From: a virus
Lineage: Duplodnaviria; Caudoviricetes
Virus record (IMG/VR): IMGVR_UViG_3300021431_000081
Coordinates: 91,846 to 155,845 of that record
DNA length: 64,000 bases
Reading direction: 5' to 3' (one strand)
Below the pieces are notes generated by a model. The model saw only the letters and a list, made by a program, of their open reading frames with translations. It did not search any database and was not told where the DNA came from. Each line of letters starts with the position of its first letter. Within the stretch, counting starts at the first letter, position 1. Shown in pieces: positions 2,581-54,315 of the stretch. Position numbers and translations under genes: made by a program.

Positions 2581-2751
2581 TCAAACGAACAATTTATTCG
2601 TATATATAGTATTCTCATTTAATGAGAATATAATCTTATCATTATTTATGAAAGTCCATCCAGAAGAACTCTGATAAACTTCTTTTAATCCCAGTTTTCT
2701 TAAGGTCTCAGCAGTTTCTTTGGATGTTGTATATATAAACTTTTTATCCAT
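2581..2751 (-). CDS. Small hypothetical protein (56 aa)
   Basis: AAGGAG RBS; MDKKFIYTTSKETAETLRKLGLKEVYQ...; below the ORF-track cutoff. Confidence 0.6.
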   Translation of the reverse strand: MDKKFIYTTSKETAETLRKLGLKEVYQSSSGWTFINNDKIIFSLNENTIYTNKLFV

Positions 2752-2760
2752 AATTACTCC

Positions 2761-4323
2761 TTAAGATTTCGCTTTATCTCTTTTTTCTGCAGATTCATCT
2801 CCAGTATCTGTTGGCGTATCAGACTTAGGTCTACCACCAGTCACAGGATCTGTTCCATCTGTAACTGTACCAGAATTAGTAAATGAAGAATTAAGAGGAT
2901 AGATCATTACATCCTGCAGTTTAAGAACTTCGTTCTCCAAGAAAAGCATAGCCAGACTATCTTTTTCGGAGAATCCATTAAGCGTCATATACGCTAACTT
3001 AGTAGGTAATGAATATTGTCCCGCTTTCAGCATATCTTCCTTAAACTGCTCTCTGGTATATACGGATATGGGGAAGAATTTAACTATACACGGATTGCTA
3101 CACAGATACCCCAATTGTCTGTTCACGAACGCCTGTGTCTGGGGAAGAAGAGAGGAGATAGCAAATTCGGTATTTGCAACCTGTGAATATCTAAATGCCT
3201 CTGCACCAGATATGGTTTCTCCATTTAAAATCTCTGCACCACCAGTAGTATTTAATACTGTTTTAGTAGCATTAGAGACTTTCGTAGTATCACCTGCGGC
3301 CTGATCATCAAATGATATAGAATCAAGTTTACCCGGTACTAATGCAGCACTAATATAATCAGGTAATGCTTCATTGATCATTCTCTGGAAATAAGCTAAT
3401 ACTAAATCAGGATTAACTTTCCAATCATCTACATCTTCGCCAATGGTTTCCATCTGCAACCAGATCATTTTATAAATTTCCTGTTCATCCGCAATGGCCT
3501 GAATGTCTTCCAGATCAGCTAAGTTAATTAAAGCGTTAAAAGCTGCTAAAAACGGAGGAAGAACAGTTTCATAATCTTCATAACGGTATTTTAAACAAAT
3601 CGCATACTCATCTGGTACTGGTTGCCATTTTTCACCTGAACTCTGATACGCTTTATACATCTCATCAAAGGGTTCGGGAATATATTCAATTAACTCCTGA
3701 CGAGATCTCAAATACGTCATATCCATACTGATTGCAAAATCACCTGTAGTATATTTACCATCAATTCGTGCATAATTGGCAGGAATTTGCCAAATAAATA
3801 CACCAGTTTCATCTATAAGATAAATTCCATAAAATACATCCTGTATAAAACATGTAAGGTATATAGTATAGAATTCTTGTTGTAAATGCATTAATTCAAT
3901 CCAATCGAGTGTTTCCTGATAAGATTTAAGTGTTTTATTTACATCCGCTCCCTTAATTAAATCGTATTGAGGAATAACCGATCTTCCATTTAAATAAAAC
4001 ATATTCGCATAAAAATGACATAATCTCATATATGTCATAGAACGATAAAATAAGTACCAAGATAAGTTTCTTAGATTTTGTTCATTACTGCCCAAATTAC
4101 GCATGTATGTACGTAATTGTTCTTTGTTAAAAACACGAATAGCTTTTGTTTGAGTCTTAGTTACATCTCTCAAACGAATAGCGTTTCTTTGATCTTCTTC
4201 ATATTTTTGTAATTTTTCTTGGGCTTTCTCGTAATCTTGCACTAATTGTTTTTGCTGTGCTACAGTTAATCTCGAAGATGCCGAAGCACTCTTCGGAGAA
4301 GATTTTACTTGTGCCATAGACAC
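2761..4323 (-). CDS. Portal protein (YonE-like)
   Basis: 520 aa, directly downstream of TerL; C-terminal GGRP motif common in portals. Confidence 0.8.
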   Translation of the reverse strand: MSMAQVKSSPKSASASSRLTVAQQKQLVQDYEKAQEKLQKYEEDQRNAIRLRDVTKTQTKAIRVFNKEQLRTYMRNLGSNEQNLRNLSWYLFYRSMTYMRLCHFYANMFYLNGRSVIPQYDLIKGADVNKTLKSYQETLDWIELMHLQQEFYTIYLTCFIQDVFYGIYLIDETGVFIWQIPANYARIDGKYTTGDFAISMDMTYLRSRQELIEYIPEPFDEMYKAYQSSGEKWQPVPDEYAICLKYRYEDYETVLPPFLAAFNALINLADLEDIQAIADEQEIYKMIWLQMETIGEDVDDWKVNPDLVLAYFQRMINEALPDYISAALVPGKLDSISFDDQAAGDTTKVSNATKTVLNTTGGAEILNGETISGAEAFRYSQVANTEFAISSLLPQTQAFVNRQLGYLCSNPCIVKFFPISVYTREQFKEDMLKAGQYSLPTKLAYMTLNGFSEKDSLAMLFLENEVLKLQDVMIYPLNSSFTNSGTVTDGTDPVTGGRPKSDTPTDTGDESAEKRDKAKS

Positions 4324-6734: not shown

Positions 6735-8037
6735 TATCTGACACCTCCTCAGAATTTTCTTCAGTTTCTTCTTCTAACGAAGAGAATGGAGCATATAGTT
6801 CCTTTAGGTCTTTTAAATGTATTTGTATATCAATATTTTTTTCTTCAAGATAATCTTTTAAGTCCAAATTTTCTTGAAGCAATATTCTGTTGATTTCTTT
6901 ATACTGGGCAAGCTGCTTTCTTAAATCAACAATGACTTGTCTCATTTCTGCAACCATGTCTGACCATTCAGATTCATCTAATTGCAATTGTTTCATAATA
7001 GAAGCGTCACTGGCTTCCTGCACCTGTTGCATACCACGACAGGTTTGAATATCAAAACCATTGACATTCGCAGCACGAAGATTAAGATCCTTGATCTGTT
7101 TAATCTTTCCCGTCCAAGTTCCTGCACCTTTAGTACGTCCTTTGTTATTCTTAAGACTGATGCAGCTTTCTGCAGCCAGATCCTTGATCATTCCAGTAAT
7201 TTTTCCTTTACTTTCTTGTAAACTCTTTATAGTGGCAGAGTTGTTCTGGACCTGTGTTATGTCAGCCATTAGTTTTGATATTGCATCATCAATCTTGCTC
7301 ACTTGCAAGAAGTTACGTACAATATCAATACAACTGGAAGTACGAAGCATATCATCACTATTATCTTCACCAGTATCTAATAATCCTAATAATTGTGAGT
7401 ACAAGAACGGCTGATCAGAAATTGCTTCTTTTTCAAAAGGATCATAAGAGAGCAGTCTTTTTACATCTGCCTTATTTTTTAAGAAATCGGCATATGTATC
7501 TTGATCTTCTCTACCACGCATGACATCTTCAGCTGTCTTTTCATCTTCATATAACTGTTTTACTTTAAACATATCCGAATCCTGAAAAGTCATGCCATAA
7601 TAATTAACCATAGCGATATTTTTAATATACGCTGTCCAAGCATTATTTTTTTTGTTGCCGCTTGTTTCGTCAGTAGATTCAGCTATACTGGAATCCCATA
7701 CATTATCCAACATAGGCTTATTTAACGCCATACATGCTTTAGTAACGCTATCCTTAGTAGGTTCATGCTCAAAACCCTGATCATCAACTCTTAAGGCGAT
7801 CTTACGAGCGCATTCTCTGCATATAGGAGTTAATCCACTCTTAGATAACGGATCTGTAGACATATAAAAATAGTCTCTGCGTTTTTTCTTATTACACATA
7901 TAACACCAGACTTTGTCTTTTTCGTCTTCCAGTTCTGCCTCTGCTTCCAATAATCTTTCCTTTGCCTCTGCAGCGGTCATTTTTTTTACCTTTAATTCCA
8001 GATCAGTAGAGGCATTTTTGGATTTTCTGGTAGCCAA
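6718..8037 (-). CDS. Putative terminase small subunit / YonG-like Zn-finger protein
   Basis: CxxC...CxxC domain plus coiled coils; overlaps the terL start; TTG start after GGAGG. Confidence 0.6.
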   Translation of the reverse strand: MATRKSKNASTDLELKVKKMTAAEAKERLLEAEAELEDEKDKVWCYMCNKKKRRDYFYMSTDPLSKSGLTPICRECARKIALRVDDQGFEHEPTKDSVTKACMALNKPMLDNVWDSSIAESTDETSGNKKNNAWTAYIKNIAMVNYYGMTFQDSDMFKVKQLYEDEKTAEDVMRGREDQDTYADFLKNKADVKRLLSYDPFEKEAISDQPFLYSQLLGLLDTGEDNSDDMLRTSSCIDIVRNFLQVSKIDDAISKLMADITQVQNNSATIKSLQESKGKITGMIKDLAAESCISLKNNKGRTKGAGTWTGKIKQIKDLNLRAANVNGFDIQTCRGMQQVQEASDASIMKQLQLDESEWSDMVAEMRQVIVDLRKQLAQYKEINRILLQENLDLKDYLEEKNIDIQIHLKDLKELYAPFSSLEEETEENSEEVSDNANSE

Positions 8038-49137: not shown

Positions 49138-49209
49138 CGGAACGTAGCTCAGATGGTTGAGCGGTTCCCTATGGGGAGCAATACGCAGGTTCGAATCCTG
49201 CCGTTCCGA
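49138..49209 (+). tRNA. tRNA (Pro-like body) with aberrant 6-nt anticodon loop
   Basis: Acceptor CGGAACG/CGTTCCG + A; good D and T arms; GTTCC-ctatgg-GGAGC. Confidence 0.65.
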
Positions 49210-49343: not shown

Positions 49344-49416
49344 CGCACTATAGTTTAAATGGAGAAAACGCCCAAAGACTAATTGGGTAATATAGGTTCG
49401 AGTCCTATTGGTGCAA
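49344..49416 (+). tRNA. Atypical tRNA, loop AGACTAA (nominal anticodon ACT), C1.A72 mismatch
   Basis: CCCAA-agactaa-TTGGG; T-arm ATAGG-TTCGAGT-CCTAT. Confidence 0.65.
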
Positions 49417-49526
49417 CTCGATTGTCTTTAGTTTGACCTCCTTTCTTCTTTTGTTACTTGTTGACTTGTTTTTGCTTTGTTTGCACGGTCTAGCTAGGGA
49501 GATCGTTAACAATCCCTAGCATGCGT

Positions 49527-49851: not shown

Positions 49852-49924
49852 GCCAGTATGACGCAATTGGTAGCGTAACTGATTTGTGATCAGTCTGTTG
49901 TAGGTTCGAATCCTATTACTGGCA
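49852..49924 (+). tRNA. tRNA-Thr(TGT)
   Basis: ACTGA-ttTGTga-TCAGT (G37); canonical D and T arms. Confidence 0.9.
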
Positions 49925-50028
49925 TTTACCGTAGCGGTGAAAGTGATACTTCATGGTTATATAACAGCACATTTTGTTTATCACCTTCATTTTTAAGGAC
50001 AACTTCACTTTCAAATATTCACGGTAGA
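49925..50028 (+). ncRNA. Y-RNA-like module 1 (leader of the Ro60 gene)
   Basis: TTTACCGT-AGCGG-TGAAAGTGA-TACTTC ... TCACTTTCA-AATATTC-ACGGTAGA. Confidence 0.8.
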
Positions 50029-50044
50029 TAAGGAGACAAATACT

Positions 50045-51754
50045 ATGAGTAAGATGAGTTCTGCAGTAAAAGAAACCAGAAAGAAAGAAATCACAAAAGA
50101 ACAAGTAAACTTCATGGGTGGTATTTCCTATGGACTTACATCCTTGGAAACCATGAAAATGGTAACAGCATCCTCTATTATGGGTGAACCTCAGTATTAT
50201 CGTGATGGTGAGTTTGCTCAGAAAGGTGTAAAGGATGGTATATGTTCTCTTTTTACTTCTTTTAGTGAGTACCGGGTGATTGGTGATCACTTTGATGGAA
50301 AGAAAACTTCAGAGGTAATGGAAGAAGTTATTGATGCTGCTCTGAGTGAAAACTTTGAAGCAACTATTCGTTGGGCATTAACTCTACGGAAAGAATACCT
50401 GATGAGACTTAATCCGCAGGTCATCATGGTTCGTGCAGCTATGCATCCTGATAGAGTGAAATTCAATGAAGAACATCCAGGTTTATTCTCTGAGATCAAT
50501 GTACAGGTAATGAGCAGAGCAGATGAACCCAGTTCTCAACTTACGTATTGGTTATACAAAAACGGAAAGAAAAATGAGATTCCTTCTATCCTGAAACGTA
50601 ACTGGGCAAAGCGTCTGGAAAATGGTAAGAGATATGAACTGGCGAAATATAAGAACGCCAATGTGGGTATGATTGATACCGTCCGTATCTGTCATGCGAA
50701 TAGTGAAATCATTGATGAACTGATGCAGACTGGAACGATCAAGGTAGATGAAGATGATACTACTTGGGAAAGACTTAGATCTGCAGGAAAGACCTGGAGA
50801 GAGATCTGGGATGCAAAGGCACTACCTCATATGGCTTGTCTCAAGAATCTCAGGAATATCTTTACTGAGATTGAAGACAGAGATTTGTGTATGAAGATTC
50901 TGGATTATCTTAAGGGTGGAGTACACAGAGGAAAGCAGTTCCCTTTCAGATACTGGCAAGCGTATAAGATGATTGAAAAAGAGCATGATATTCATCATCA
51001 GTCACTCATCCTTGATGCTTTGGAAGAATGTATTGATCTGGCATGTGATAATATGCCGAAGCTTAAAGGTAAGACCATGTGTCTGTCTGATAACAGCGGA
51101 TCTGCATGGGGAGCATTCACCAGTGAGTACGGATCGGTAACTGTTGCTGAGATTGATAATCTTAGTTCTGTCATCACTGCAAGGAATTCAGATGAAGGAT
51201 ACGTTGGTAAGTTCGGTGACCTGTTAAAAGTTGTTCCTGTATCCAAACGAAACGGTGTTCTGAATCAGACCAAGGCCATTACTCACAATCATTACAATGA
51301 TGTTGGTGGTGGTACAGAAAGTGGTATCTGGAAGTTCTTTGAAAGAGCCATTGATAAGAAAGAATGGTGGGATAATATCTTCATTTATTCTGACATGCAA
51401 GCGGGTACAGGTGGGCTTTACGGAACAAGTGCAGATATGGATGCGTATAGAAGACGTGGGTTTGCTATGAGAGACAGCATTCATGTCGATGTAGCTAAAC
51501 TCATCAATGAATATAGACGAAAGGTAAATCCCAAAGTAAATGTTTTTTCTGTACAGACTGCAGGATACACCAATGTGGTTATTCCTGAATATGGATACAG
51601 AACGAACATTATGTATGGATGGACATCCAAAGAGTTGATCTATGCGGATGCCATGATCAAACTCTGGGATGAACATGATGAAATGAAACTTTTAAGAGGA
51701 CAGCGGAGAAATACATCAGTAATTGACGATGACCTCTTAAAAAGTACAACATAA
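50045..51754 (+). CDS. rsr: Ro60/TROVE-domain RNA-binding protein (Rsr-like)
   Basis: Helical TROVE region (YELAKY, ACLKNLRNI, QFPFRY..AY) plus vWA MIDAS (DNSGS, GGT, YSDMQ). Confidence 0.92.
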   Translation: MSKMSSAVKETRKKEITKEQVNFMGGISYGLTSLETMKMVTASSIMGEPQYYRDGEFAQKGVKDGICSLFTSFSEYRVIGDHFDGKKTSEVMEEVIDAALSENFEATIRWALTLRKEYLMRLNPQVIMVRAAMHPDRVKFNEEHPGLFSEINVQVMSRADEPSSQLTYWLYKNGKKNEIPSILKRNWAKRLENGKRYELAKYKNANVGMIDTVRICHANSEIIDELMQTGTIKVDEDDTTWERLRSAGKTWREIWDAKALPHMACLKNLRNIFTEIEDRDLCMKILDYLKGGVHRGKQFPFRYWQAYKMIEKEHDIHHQSLILDALEECIDLACDNMPKLKGKTMCLSDNSGSAWGAFTSEYGSVTVAEIDNLSSVITARNSDEGYVGKFGDLLKVVPVSKRNGVLNQTKAITHNHYNDVGGGTESGIWKFFERAIDKKEWWDNIFIYSDMQAGTGGLYGTSADMDAYRRRGFAMRDSIHVDVAKLINEYRRKVNPKVNVFSVQTAGYTNVVIPEYGYRTNIMYGWTSKELIYADAMIKLWDEHDEMKLLRGQRRNTSVIDDDLLKSTT

Positions 51755-51758
51755 ATAA

Positions 51759-51894
51759 GCAATAGGCGAAGCGGTCTAGACAGTTACTTCGTTTATAGAC
51801 AAAAGGTTAAGTCAATACTCTGCTAAAGTATCTATTGTTGGTTCGATCCCAACTAAACAGTTTTATGTACTGTCTAATTATTCTCGCCTATTGC
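51759..51894 (+). ncRNA. Y-RNA-like module 2 enclosing a tRNA body with GCT anticodon
   Basis: 11-bp closing stem GCAATAGGCGA/TCGCCTATTGC; AGCGG/ATTATTC loop; D, anticodon (ATACT-ctGCTaa-AGTAT) and T arms inside. Confidence 0.88.
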
Positions 51895-51903
51895 AAAGTA
51901 AAT

Positions 51904-52005
51904 AACATCTGTAGCGGTAAGCAGTGTTACTTCATTTGATGAAAATTGGACTTGAAATCCTCTCCTGTTATATACACCCAACACTCTTAATTATTCATAG
52001 ATGTT
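51904..52005 (+). ncRNA. Y-RNA-like module 3 with a TGA anticodon-type loop
   Basis: AACATCTGT/ATAGATGTT stem; AGCGG/ATTATTC; GGA-ctTGAaa-TCC. Confidence 0.82.
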
Positions 52006-52017
52006 TAAATAAAATTT

Positions 52018-52123
52018 GGCTGAAGCGGTCAGAGGAGTTACTTCGATATTAGGATTATCAATTGACTTTTAATCAATCTAAAGTGGTTCAAATCCACTAT
52101 TAACTCCTTCATTATTCTCAGCC
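52018..52123 (+). ncRNA. Y-RNA-like module 4 with a TTT (Lys) anticodon arm and T-arm
   Basis: GGCTGA/TCAGCC stem; AGCGG/ATTATTC; ATTGA-ctTTTaa-TCAAT; AGTGG-TTCAAAT-CCACT. Confidence 0.88.
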
Positions 52124-52211
52124 TTTGTTACATAAGCCTTCTTGAATTAATATTTTTGACATGTTTCATTCTCCAATCAGTTTTCCGTCTTTCTGTAAAA
52201 AAGACGGGTTT

Positions 52212-52299
52212 TGGGGATTAGCTCAATGGTCAGAGCCGAGTTCTTATAAAGCGAAGGCCCTCACAAGGTTTTATACGGGTTCGAATCCAGTATCCCCGA
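52212..52299 (+). tRNA. Atypical tRNA-Ile(TAT) with long variable arm
   Basis: Acceptor TGGGGAT/ATCCCCG + A; loop ctTATaa on a weak stem; T-loop TTCGAAT. Confidence 0.65.
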
Positions 52300-52316
52300 T
52301 TTTAATGAGGTGTTAT

Positions 52317-53270: not shown

Positions 53271-53338
53271 TCCTCTTTAGTTTAGTGGTAGAACAACCAA
53301 GGGATACGGAGGCATCAGTTCGAATCTGATAAGAGGAA
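53271..53338 (+). tRNA. Pseudo-tRNA with degenerate anticodon arm
   Basis: Acceptor TCCTCTT/AAGAGGA; D-arm GTTT-agtggta-GAAC; T-arm ATCAG-TTCGAAT-CTGAT. Confidence 0.65.
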
Positions 53339-53378: not shown

Positions 53379-53912
53379 ATGAGTGATGTAAGGCTTAAAC
53401 TTGCCCCTCCCTGGATCACATATCTGAATGAGATTCAGGCACTGTTTGATGGTGATCCTCAGATCGCATGTAACATTGATTGGAAGAAACCTTCCATTGT
53501 TCTGGCGGTTAGCAATGGTGACAAGGCTGCTGCGATAGCAAAATTACTCCCGGCTGAAAAGACATGGGGAAATATTACTATGACCATTGATGTAGATGGT
53601 CCTATGAGTAATCGAGCGTTTACTTCTAGTAAGGAATTGTATGAGACAGCATTCAGCGGTAATCCTGCATTTGCTTATTGCGTGGCACCTGCGGAAGAGG
53701 GTTATTTCTTTGTTGACTTCGTGTATGTGGTATTTAAGAACTGTGTTGTTCAGTTCTTCAATGATAACCTTAATGACGCACATGGACTGGTAAGTACACT
53801 TTATCAGTATATTGCGGATGATGTCTTTGAGGGATGTACTCCTGTAGGTGTACATTATTGCACTGATGTGGAGCGTGGTAAACTAGGTAAACCGCTTGGA
53901 GAATGGCCTTAA
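53379..53912 (+). CDS. Hypothetical protein
   Basis: AAAGGAG RBS; 177 aa. Confidence 0.8.
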   Translation: MSDVRLKLAPPWITYLNEIQALFDGDPQIACNIDWKKPSIVLAVSNGDKAAAIAKLLPAEKTWGNITMTIDVDGPMSNRAFTSSKELYETAFSGNPAFAYCVAPAEEGYFFVDFVYVVFKNCVVQFFNDNLNDAHGLVSTLYQYIADDVFEGCTPVGVHYCTDVERGKLGKPLGEWP

Positions 53913-54183: not shown

Positions 54184-54315
54184 GGGGAGATAGCTCAGGT
54201 GGTAGAGCATAAGAGAAAAACAGAACTGTTATAATTATTCTCAGTAATGAAGCGGATTAACAGTTACTTCATATAGGCAAGCTTAATGTCGATGGTTCGA
54301 TTCCATCTCTCCCCA
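54184..54315 (+). ncRNA. Circularly permuted Y-RNA-like module 5 inside a tRNA body
   Basis: Acceptor GGGGAGA/TCTCCCC + A with D and T arms; anticodon arm replaced by AACTGTTA-ta-ATTATTC-TCA-gtaa-TGA-AGCGG-at-TAACAGTT-ACTTC. Confidence 0.88.

What the first reader, a model, noticed from the sequence alone, without database searches (positions are those of the whole stretch)
51759..52123. Y-like RNAs that keep anticodon loops (Ser-GCU, Ser-UGA, Lys-UUU): candidate decoys for anticodon nucleases
Seen: module 2 encloses D, anticodon (CU-GCU-AA) and T arms in normal order. Module 4 has AUUGA-CUUUUAA-UCAAU plus a T-arm. Module 3 has GGA-CUUGAAA-UCC, the same loop as the phage tRNA-Ser at 46895. 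The Ro-binding stem sits where the acceptor end would be, so unprocessed RNAs cannot be aminoacylated. Established: in described YrlA RNAs the Ro stem replaces the anticodon arm, the opposite topology; PrrC and PARIS AriB cleave tRNA-Lys(UUU). Inference: Ro60-stabilised, non-translating anticodon baits that titrate tRNA-targeting defences, or ligands for synthetases or modification enzymes.
Basis: partly seen in the sequence, partly recalled or inferred. Interest (0 to 1): 0.88.

Follow-up and report, generated by a model that had tools for sequence, protein, structure and literature searches.

The report
Phage Ro60 partner RNAs displaying anticodon loops
Next to a phage gene for a Ro60-type RNA-binding ring protein lie small RNAs with a shared "handle" that enclose tRNA look-alikes with true anticodon-type loops; relatives keep the loop shape but change the middle three letters unusually fast, so the loop is probably read by some cell factor, not used for translation.

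Summary
Window 51759-52123 holds three RNAs (M2, M3, M4) that share one covarying handle and lie just downstream of a protein with a Ro60 fold.

- **What the payloads are:** M2 and M4 enclose cloverleaves in the normal D-anticodon-T order (Rfam tRNA 48.4 and 40.5 bits). M3 keeps only a short anticodon-type hairpin.
- **How common this is:** The design recurs beside related Ro60 genes in many phage contigs. Of 80 distinct handle-framed RNAs, 51 have a 7-nt loop with U33 in 94% and A37 in 84%.
- **The triplet changes fast:** Two recently shared blocks are 95-98% identical. There the triplets changed at 4 of 15 positions, against 3.4% elsewhere (p = 0.002). A34 is avoided.
- **They are not ordinary tRNAs:** The "Ser" anticodons sit on short-arm bodies, the acceptor ends are buried, and some copies lack a T arm.

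The decoy-for-anticodon-nuclease idea is untested; I put it at about 0.2. The "opposite topology" is not unprecedented, because D. radiodurans Yrn1 has the same arm order.

I class this as a new variant of Ro60-Y RNA systems. The scan has noted phage Ro60-plus-handle RNA families on other DNA before.

The parts
49924..50029 (+). M1: handle RNA with a non-tRNA payload, directly after tRNA-Thr and 15 nt before the Ro60 start codon
   Evidence: It has the same AGCGGU...AUACUUC...AAUAUUC frame and a 9-bp outer stem. Model R1 scores it 29.9 bits.
50045..51754 (+). Ro60-like protein, 569 aa (HEAT-repeat ring plus vWA domain, with a DNSGS MIDAS motif at residues 349-353)
   Evidence: Pfam TROVE 23.2 bits. 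phrog_850 'RNA-binding protein', E 7e-46. AlphaFold2 model pLDDT 79.8. The top 11 Foldseek PDB hits are all Ro60: phiLo Ro60 9KOP E 1e-13, D. radiodurans Rsr 2NVO 4e-11, Xenopus 1YVP 1e-9.
51759..51894 (+). M2: handle (outer stem 51759-51769 with 51884-51894; AGCGGU 51770-51775; UUAUUC 51878-51883) enclosing a complete class-I cloverleaf at 51789-51861
   Evidence: Alignment of 5 orthologues: 14 of 31 pairs show compensatory change.
51815..51831 (+). M2 anticodon-type arm AUACU-CUGCUAA-AGUAU, triplet GCU at 51822-51824
   Evidence: Orthologues carry UUA, UGA or UUU on covarying stems.
51904..52005 (+). M3: handle with a minimal payload, GGA-CUUGAAA-UCC (51948-51960, triplet UGA), and no T arm
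   Evidence: Relatives keep CUUGAAA on stems AAGA/UCUU, AAAAAGA/UCUUUUU and AUU/AAU.
52018..52123 (+). M4: handle whose inner stem runs straight into the acceptor-like helix of a cloverleaf (52036-52106). Arm AUUGA-CUUUUAA-UCAAU at 52061-52077, triplet UUU at 52068-52070.
   Evidence: Model R1 scores it 115.6 bits.
54184..54315 (+). M5: the converse design. A tRNA with a free 7-bp acceptor stem whose anticodon arm is replaced by a closed copy of the same handle.
   Evidence: Rfam tRNA 50.6 bits.

Best explanation
M2, M3 and M4 are members of a phage family of Y RNA-like small RNAs.

**The handle.** A conserved handle, formed by pairing of the 5' and 3' ends, is the likely binding site of the phage's own Ro60-like ring protein. 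It consists of an outer stem, a bulge (A/U)GC(G/A)G, an inner stem, UUACUUC, and on the 3' side A/U-UAUUC.

**The payload.** The interior is a variable payload. In these three RNAs it is a non-decoding tRNA mimic that displays a genuine anticodon-type stem-loop (Y32, U33, three free bases, A37, A/C38).

- The acceptor end is locked in the handle.
- The Ser-type anticodons sit on short-variable-arm bodies.
- M3-type copies have no T arm.

The RNAs therefore do not serve translation.

**Selection.** Selection keeps the loop format and the stem. The triplet changes faster than the surrounding DNA and stays within real-anticodon space (G, U or C at position 34). The loop is therefore most likely presented as bait to a host or phage factor that reads anticodon loops.

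**Candidate readers.** The leading candidate is a tRNA-cleaving defence nuclease or toxin that the RNA competes away. I put this sub-claim alone at about 0.2. Alternatives are an anticodon-binding enzyme tethered to Ro60, or a Ro60/PNPase complex.

**Shown versus inferred.** Shown: architecture, covariation, conservation, the triplet pattern and the Ro60 fold.
For: **Ro60 fold.**. The best sequence match in the PDB is phiLo Ro60. That protein binds Y-like RNAs with a CGAA-bearing bulge between end-pairing stems (PMC12135203).

**The handle is a Y RNA handle.** In Bacillus phage G the same handle encloses a YrlA-type domain that hits Rfam RF02553 (36.2 bits, E 1e-5). It also flanks the TROVE gene gp540 in at least 6 unannotated copies. 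M2 carries GGCGAAG, which fits the GNCGAAN0-1G motif.

**Structure.**

**Recurrence.** Model R1 finds 182 hits in 89 loci, all on the TROVE strand in the fetched loci. Of 80 unique framed RNAs, 51 have a 7-nt loop with C32 in 39, U33 in 48, A37 in 43 and A38 in 41.

**Purifying selection.** Modules differ by 0-7% where 4-fold sites of the adjacent gene differ by 24-35%.

**Triplet behaviour.**
- Near-identical orthologues differ only in the triplet: UUA/UGA with 0 of 80 other differences, and GUU/UUU with 1 of 78.
- In two shared blocks that are 95-98% identical, triplets changed at 4 of 15 positions against 32 of 951 elsewhere (p = 0.0017), and against spacers p = 0.004.
- Anticodon arms take 10 of 24 differences in 49 of 451 nt (p = 6e-5).
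- A34 occurs in 1 of 30 against 0.30 expected (p = 3e-4).

**Not tRNAs.**
- Nested 'Ser' calls are 69-73 nt, whereas free tRNA-Ser genes of the same loci are 87-91 nt.
- The acceptor is shortened to 5 bp with a mismatch in L002/L292.
- M4's acceptor is continuous with the handle helix.
Against:
- Measured against 4-fold sites of the Ro60 gene, the triplet rate (13 of 36) is about what neutrality predicts. The case for faster-than-background change therefore rests on two mosaic genome pairs and 15 triplet positions.
- Sequences are related by descent, so the counts at position 34 are not independent.
- The model-fitted alignment leans towards tRNA-like loops.
- M2-type RNAs of some relatives have a perfect 7-bp acceptor stem (L120). 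M. smegmatis YrlA is cut by RNase P and receives CCA (PMC4201824), so release of a free tRNA-like RNA is possible.
- About half of the framed RNAs have no anticodon-type loop. The loop is therefore not needed for the family's core function.
- The handle gave no Rfam Y RNA match, and three of the four window copies depart from the GNCGAA motif.
Confidence: 0.55

Rival explanations
1. **Passive tRNA-shaped payload.** The cloverleaf or hairpin only gives the Y-like RNA a stable, nuclease-resistant and modification-competent fold, as Chen et al. 2014 considered for YrlA. The anticodon-type loop is kept for folding, and the three middle bases are simply free to drift.
For: - The triplet rate is about equal to the 4-fold-site rate of the neighbouring gene.
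- Payloads are interchangeable, and half of them lack such a loop.
- Triplets are A/U-rich, like the genomes.
Against: - Loop flanks changed at 1 of 48 positions, while any stable loop would serve a passive fold.
- A34 is avoided (p = 3e-4).
- In recently shared blocks the anticodon arms collect the differences (p = 6e-5), including remodelling of a whole arm and a concerted UUA-to-UGA switch in two modules of one genome pair.
- M3-type RNAs keep only this hairpin.
Confidence: 0.2
2. **Precursor tRNAs.** RNase P and a 3' nuclease cut M2 (and perhaps M4) out of the handle, CCA is added, and the product decodes AGY or AAA codons. Under this reading the handle is only a processing or regulatory leader-trailer duplex.
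For: - Rfam tRNA scores of 48.4 and 40.5 bits lie within the range of the phage's other tRNAs.
- M2 has canonical D-loop and T-loop features (A14, GG, UUCGAUC).
- There is a perfect 7-bp acceptor in L120.
- There is the RNase P and CCA precedent for M. smegmatis YrlA.
- The complete genome has no other tRNA-Lys(UUU) or tRNA-Ser(GCU).
Against: - GCU, UGA and UUA sit on one and the same class-I body. This body lacks the long variable arm that bacterial SerRS needs, while free tRNA-Ser genes in the same loci have that arm.
- Orthologues change anticodon without any change of body. Ordinary tRNA genes do the reverse.
- M2 has U1.G72 and a C2.A71 mismatch. The acceptor is cut to 5 bp in L002/L292.
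- M4's acceptor is buried in a continuous helix of about 11 bp.
- Relatives carry both a nested UUU module and a free tRNA-Lys (L289 and L294).
- M3-type RNAs cannot be tRNAs.
Confidence: 0.08
3. **Adaptor rather than decoy.** The anticodon arm, with or without the tRNA elbow, tethers Ro60 to a specific anticodon-reading host component. Ro60 might act through host PNPase, as in the Ro60-Y RNA-PNPase (RYPER) complexes of D. radiodurans and phage phiLo. Candidate components are an aminoacyl-tRNA synthetase, a loop-modifying enzyme, T-box leaders of Firmicute hosts, or the ribosomal decoding site. The RNA would thereby redirect or inhibit that component.
For: - The established role of Y RNAs is to tether Ro60 to an effector (PMC4201824; PMC12135203).
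- Several payload types share one handle, which fits a set of adaptors.
- The hosts are Clostridia and Bacilli.
- Many triplets are G34 types.
Against: - No candidate partner gene is linked to the locus. The conserved 177-aa neighbour has no family.
- Hairpin-only M3-type RNAs lack the elbow that T-boxes and most synthetases need.
- Fast triplet switching between sister phages fits an arms race better than a housekeeping target.
Confidence: 0.15

Closest known systems
YrlA (Y RNA-like A; Rfam RF02553; Chen et al. 2014 PMC4201824; Wang et al. 2018, 10.1101/312249)
   Same: - It is encoded beside a Ro60 orthologue on the same strand, often in several copies and among tRNA genes.
- The 5' and 3' ends pair into a handle with a conserved purine-rich bulge.
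- The interior mimics tRNA, with a canonical T loop and GG in the D loop.
- Phage G, a relative of this phage, carries a true YrlA-type RNA inside the very same handle.
   Different: - YrlA is permuted: T arm, closed acceptor hairpin, then D arm.
- In YrlA the Ro stem takes the place of the anticodon arm, and YrlA 'lacks the anticodon loop'.
- M2-M4 have the normal order, bury the acceptor end and keep a 7-nt anticodon-type loop.
- There is no RF02553 match at E <= 10.
Deinococcus radiodurans Yrn1 (Chen et al. 2014, Fig. 2E)
   Same: - The D-like and T arms have the same orientation relative to the RNA ends.
- The stem-loop between them sits in the anticodon position, with a 5-bp stem.
- The published Yrn1 probe implies the sequence GAAGCGGUG, which shares GAAGCGGU with M2 and M4.
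   Different: - The Yrn1 loop has 6 nt, with no variable arm, no clear D arm and no dihydrouridine.
- No family of orthologues and no varying triplets have been described for it.
- I could not fetch Yrn1 itself for an alignment.
Thermus phage phiLo Ro60 with Yrl1/Yrl2 (PMC12135203; PDB 9KOP, 9L5Y)
   Same: - It is the closest solved relative of the window protein.
- It is a phage Ro60 with several adjacent Y-like RNAs of stem / bulge / stem design.
- It binds these RNAs and host PNPase in vitro.
   Different: - Identity to the window protein is 19%.
- The text I searched says nothing of tRNA-like or anticodon features in Yrl1 or Yrl2 ('anticodon' 0 times, 'tRNA' twice, passages not read).
Phage tRNAs that escape anticodon nucleases (T5 tRNA-Lys against PARIS AriB; PMC11455837)
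   Same: Both involve phage-encoded tRNA-shaped RNAs whose anticodon stem-loop is the part under selection. tRNA-Lys(UUU) is a known target, and UUU is the commonest payload triplet here.
   Different: Those are chargeable replacement tRNAs. The RNAs here cannot be charged as they stand, and would have to act by competition. No nuclease link is shown.

Membership tests
Ro60-associated Y RNA (broad sense) | Encoded next to a Ro60/Rsr orthologue, on the same strand | tested here: met
   M2 starts 5 nt after the stop codon of a protein with a Ro60 fold. The same holds in the related loci fetched.
Ro60-associated Y RNA (broad sense) | 5' and 3' ends pair into a stem that carries a conserved Ro-binding bulge (GNCGAAN0-1G / CGAA in bacteria and phages) | tested here: inconclusive
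   The stem and bulge are present and covary. M2 has GGCGAAG, M4 has CUGAAG, and M3 and M1 have GUAG. The conserved core is AGCGG plus UUACUUC, which no paper I could read describes.
Ro60-associated Y RNA (broad sense) | Bound by Ro60 in vivo or in vitro | not testable with these tools
   This needs immunoprecipitation or a gel shift.
YrlA (RF02553) | Permuted tRNA-like domain (T arm, closed acceptor hairpin, D arm) with no anticodon loop | tested here: not met
   The order is D-anticodon-T, with a 7-nt loop. There is no RF02553 hit at E <= 10. Phage G's copy does hit the model.
tRNA (RF00005), as a working decoder | Cloverleaf that reaches the family score | tested here: met
   M2 scores 48.4 bits and M4 40.5 bits against a gathering score of 29. 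M3 is not matched.
tRNA (RF00005), as a working decoder | Free 7-bp acceptor end with single-stranded flanks that allow processing and charging | tested here: not met
   M4's acceptor continues into the handle helix. M2 has U1.G72 and C2.A71 and is clamped by 8-bp and 11-bp handle stems. In orthologues the acceptor is shortened to 5 bp. Processing itself is untested.
tRNA (RF00005), as a working decoder | Body matches the anticodon's identity set, which for Ser means a long variable arm | tested here: not met
   GCU and UGA sit on 69-73-nt class-I bodies, whereas free tRNA-Ser genes of the same loci are 87-91 nt.
Decoy or competitive inhibitor of anticodon nucleases | Binds or is cut by a tRNA-targeting nuclease and protects host or phage tRNA | not testable with these tools
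   Indirect only: the loop format is conserved, and the triplet changes fast and looks like a real anticodon.

The most novel reading that the evidence does not exclude
Ro60-held anticodon baits. Each phage carries a small panel of handle RNAs. Their displayed anticodon arms copy the tRNAs that its host's defence nucleases or toxins cut. Sister phages retune the triplet, sometimes in several modules at once, as they meet hosts with different tRNA-targeting defences. Ro60 protects the bait or couples it to RNA decay. This would be an RNA-based counter-defence of a kind not yet described.
Probability: 0.18. Interest if true: 0.85.

Novelty: new variant of a known kind. Interest (0 to 1): 0.62.

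Why it matters
What the tRNA-like domain of bacterial and phage Y RNAs is for has been open since 2014.

Here a large natural series of Y-like RNAs keeps a complete anticodon-type arm. The loop format is fixed and the triplet varies between sister phages. This points to the anticodon loop as a working surface and gives simple tests: triplet swaps, loop mutants, and competition with known tRNA nucleases.

If the bait reading holds, it adds an RNA decoy to the phage counter-defence repertoire and gives phage Ro60 a role. If it fails, the series still documents an undescribed branch of Y RNAs. It also warns that tRNA finders call these RNAs as tRNA-Ser, tRNA-Lys or suppressor genes in phage genomes.

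Tried and rejected
- **Rfam.** There is no Y RNA or YrlA match in the finding region, even at E <= 10.
- **Pattern scan of viral contigs.** I replaced it with protein-anchored loci.
- **Promoter and terminator scan.** It was not above shuffles and is uninformative.
- **Papers and supplements.** The supplement tables of Chen et al. 2014 and two reviews are not held.
- **Donor tRNA.** No free tRNA in 177 loci is more than 68% identical to the M2 or M4 bodies apart from their own orthologues.
- **RNA-repair context in the 155.8-kb genome.**
  - No RtcB, CCA-adding enzyme or TGT was found.
  - One RNA ligase with an N-terminal OB domain lies far from the locus.
- **First neutral benchmark.** Against 4-fold sites of the Ro60 gene the triplet looked merely unconstrained. 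I set this aside for the closest pairs, because the module block is a mosaic much younger than the gene.
- **Target enrichment.** I considered and dropped enrichment for known nuclease targets. Known targets cover too many anticodons, and the payload spectrum resembles the phages' own free tRNA sets.

Full report
**1. What is at the site**

The window belongs to a complete 155.8-kb linear virus record. Its TROVE gene (50045-51754, + strand) is 66% identical in DNA to gp540 of Bacillus phage G.

Three RNAs follow the stop codon: M2 (51759-51894), M3 (51904-52005) and M4 (52018-52123). All three share this layout:
- an outer stem made by the two ends;
- a 5' bulge AGCGGU;
- an inner stem ending in GUU;
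- ACUUC(G/A);
- a payload;
- the inner-stem complement;
- UUAUUC;
- the outer-stem complement.

A fourth copy, M1, lies at 49924-50029, just before the gene. A fifth, M5 at 54184-54315, carries the handle as a closed hairpin in place of a tRNA's anticodon arm. The handle pattern occurs 6 times in the window against 0.05 expected. The two hits outside the locus have no closing stems.

**2.

ARAGORN and the Rfam tRNA model call the payloads of M2 (GCU, 48.4 bits) and M4 (UUU, 40.5 bits) as cloverleaves in normal order.
- M2 has A14, GG, a 5-nt variable loop and a UUCGAUC T loop. Its acceptor is U1.G72, C2.A71 plus five Watson-Crick pairs. Asymmetric linkers separate it from the handle.
- M4's acceptor-like helix runs on into the handle's inner stem.
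- M3 has only GGA-CUUGAAA-UCC and no T arm. Its loop equals that of the phage tRNA-Ser(UGA) at 46895.

**3. The protein is a Ro60**

Pfam TROVE is at threshold, and phrog_850 matches over the full length. The best PDB sequence match is the Ro60 of Thermus phage phiLo. An AlphaFold2 model (pLDDT 79.8) finds only Ro60 structures in its top 11 hits:
- phiLo Ro60;
- D. radiodurans Rsr;
- Xenopus Ro60;
- human Ro60.

The vWA MIDAS motif DNSGS is invariant in 30 relatives. The phiLo protein binds two adjacent Y-like RNAs of stem/bulge/stem design, and also host PNPase (PMC12135203).

**4. The handle is a Y RNA handle**

Phage G has at least six unannotated copies of the same frame around gp540. One of them (L001:1260-1415) encloses a permuted tRNA-like domain that matches Rfam YrlA. 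The score is 36.2 bits with E 1e-5, below the gathering score but specific. Chen et al. 2014 are cited as having found a Y RNA in phage G.

The frame thus holds a classical YrlA domain in one phage, and normal-order cloverleaves, bare hairpins or unrelated inserts in others. M2 fits the published GNCGAAN0-1G motif. The other copies keep only (G/U)(A/U)AGCGG.

**5. Relatives**

The protein has more than 3,275 relatives, the top 120 at 62% identity or more, mostly from rumen and gut assemblies. I fetched about 175 loci.

A covariance model built from nine M4-type orthologues gives 182 hits in 89 viral and close loci, all on the gene's strand in the fetched loci. It gives fewer hits in bacterial MAG loci.

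Structure is well supported:
- 91.4% of cells are paired against 78.0% in shuffles (0 of 500 reach it).
- 17 pairs show compensatory change, against 3-6 when partners are slid.
- All five anticodon-stem pairs covary.

**6. The anticodon-type loop is a selected feature**

Of 80 distinct framed RNAs, 51 have a 7-nt loop on the aligned helix, with C32 in 39, U33 in 48, A37 in 43 and A38 in 41. This alignment is fitted to the model, which favours such loops.

An independent script test gives the same answer: 13 strict CU-NNN-AA loops against 1.08 +/- 0.98 in shuffles.

Loop flanks changed at 1 of 48 positions in 12 disjoint orthologue pairs.

**7. The triplet varies**

- M2-type orthologues carry GCU, UUA, UGA or UUU.
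- M4-type orthologues carry UUU, GGU, GUU, GUA or GCA.
- M3-type orthologues carry UGA, UUA, UUU or GUU.
- Some orthologues differ in nothing else. L002 against L292 shows UUA/UGA with 0 of 80 other differences. L122 against L291 shows GUU/UUU with 1 of 78.

Across disjoint pairs the triplet changed at 13 of 36 positions, against 136 of 1,297 elsewhere (p = 6e-5).

*Two neutral yardsticks disagree.* Against 4-fold sites of the Ro60 gene (24-60% divergent), the triplet is about neutral and the rest of each RNA is strongly conserved.

However, the module block of L293/L292 is 95% identical over about 450 nt, spacers and a tRNA-Ser included, while the gene's 4-fold sites differ by 35%. The block is therefore a recent mosaic, and its own background is the fair yardstick.

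On that yardstick, 10 of the 24 differences lie in the 49 nt of the three anticodon arms (p = 6e-5). One arm is wholly remodelled. One shows a compensatory 31-39 pair change plus UUU to GUU. Two modules switch UUA to UGA together.

Adding L122/L291 (98% identical), triplets changed at 4 of 15 positions against 32 of 951 (p = 0.0017). Against spacers the figure is 10 of 257 (p = 0.004).

Position 34 is G in 15, U in 10, C in 4 and A in 1 of 30, where A is expected at 0.30 (p = 3e-4). This matches real anticodons.

The numbers are small and the sequences are related by descent. I read this as suggestive, not proven, diversifying selection.

**8. These are not ordinary tRNAs**

- Nested GCU and UGA "Ser" calls are 69-73 nt, whereas free tRNA-Ser genes of the same loci are 87-91 nt.
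- One body carries different anticodons in sister phages.
- Acceptors are mismatched, shortened (L002/L292) or buried (M4).
- Relatives hold both a nested UUU module and a free tRNA-Lys.
- M3-type RNAs are hairpins only.

Release of M2-type RNAs by RNase P cannot be excluded. L120 has a perfect 7-bp acceptor, and M. smegmatis YrlA is cut and receives CCA.

**9. Comparison with what is known**

But Chen et al. 2014 draw D. radiodurans Yrn1 with the arm order seen here and a 5-bp "anticodon arm" with a 6-nt loop. The published Yrn1 probe also implies GAAGCGGU, as in M2 and M4.

A competitive-inhibitor role against an anticodon nuclease was floated for YrlA by Hughes et al. 2020. AriB does cut tRNA-Lys.

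I found no paper or Rfam family that describes handle-enclosed, normal-order tRNA mimics with true 7-nt anticodon loops. The scan itself has met phage Ro60-plus-handle RNA families on other DNA.

**10. Verdict**

These are Y-like RNAs of a phage Ro60. They display a selected, non-decoding anticodon arm with a fast-changing triplet. The nuclease-decoy idea is the leading guess at about 0.2.

This is a new variant of a known kind, with interest 0.62.

Noticed in passing
window 54184-54315 (+): A tRNA with a perfect 7-bp acceptor stem, D arm and T arm, whose anticodon arm is replaced by a closed copy of the handle (3' half, GUAA loop, 5' half). It amounts to a circular permutation of YrlA. Orthologues are in L288 (about 4021) and L122 (about 7077-7220).
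   Followed up: partly
window 52187-52207 (+): An 8-bp hairpin, CCGUCUUU / AAAGACGG, with loop CUGUAAA (anticodon-type, GUA), followed by a U run. It lies between M4 and the next tRNA and looks like a terminator with an anticodon-style loop.
   Followed up: no
window 52211-52300 (+): A tRNA with anticodon UUA (reads UAA) and a long variable arm, directly after M4. Phage G also annotates a tRNA 'other (tta)'. UUA is also a payload triplet in L002/L293.
   Followed up: no
window 49138-49209, 49344-49417, 53271-53338 (+): tRNA genes with good acceptor and T arms but deviant anticodon regions: a short loop at 49138, loop AGACUAA without U33 at 49344, and a 68-nt form at 53271.
   Followed up: no
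L001 (Bacillus phage G, NC_023719) 1260-1415 and 2732-3432: Six handle RNAs lie in gaps left unannotated in the record, around TROVE gene gp540. One is YrlA-type (Rfam 36.2 bits) and five carry short non-tRNA payloads.
   Followed up: partly
L160, L164, L167, L170, L174, L180, L195 (about 2440-2800 in each): A distinct class of 200-230-nt handle RNAs with a large shared payload (recurring GGACCAC, CCAUAAG and ACGUAAU) lies upstream of more distant Ro60 genes.
   Followed up: no
L148:4803-4935, L208:198-328: These are YrlA-order RNAs. The hairpin before the T arm is built from the handle's ACUUCGU and carries an anticodon-type loop (CUGAUAA or CUGUCAC).
   Followed up: no
window 53379-53912 (+): A 177-aa ORF with no Pfam or PHROG family is syntenic with the RNA array in L120, L288, L289 and L294. 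It could be a partner protein.
   Followed up: no
L295:1000-2040 (G000:C1:10403-11443, outside the window): The phage encodes an RNA ligase with an N-terminal PHA02142 OB domain (Pfam RNA_ligase, E 6e-25). I found no RtcB, CCA-adding enzyme or TGT in the genome.
   Followed up: partly
L293:4750-5200 against L292:5412-5862: The three-module block plus tRNA-Ser is 95% identical between two phages whose Ro60 genes differ at 35% of 4-fold sites. L292 also has an extra gene between Ro60 and the block. This points to mosaic exchange of the RNA cassette.
   Followed up: yes
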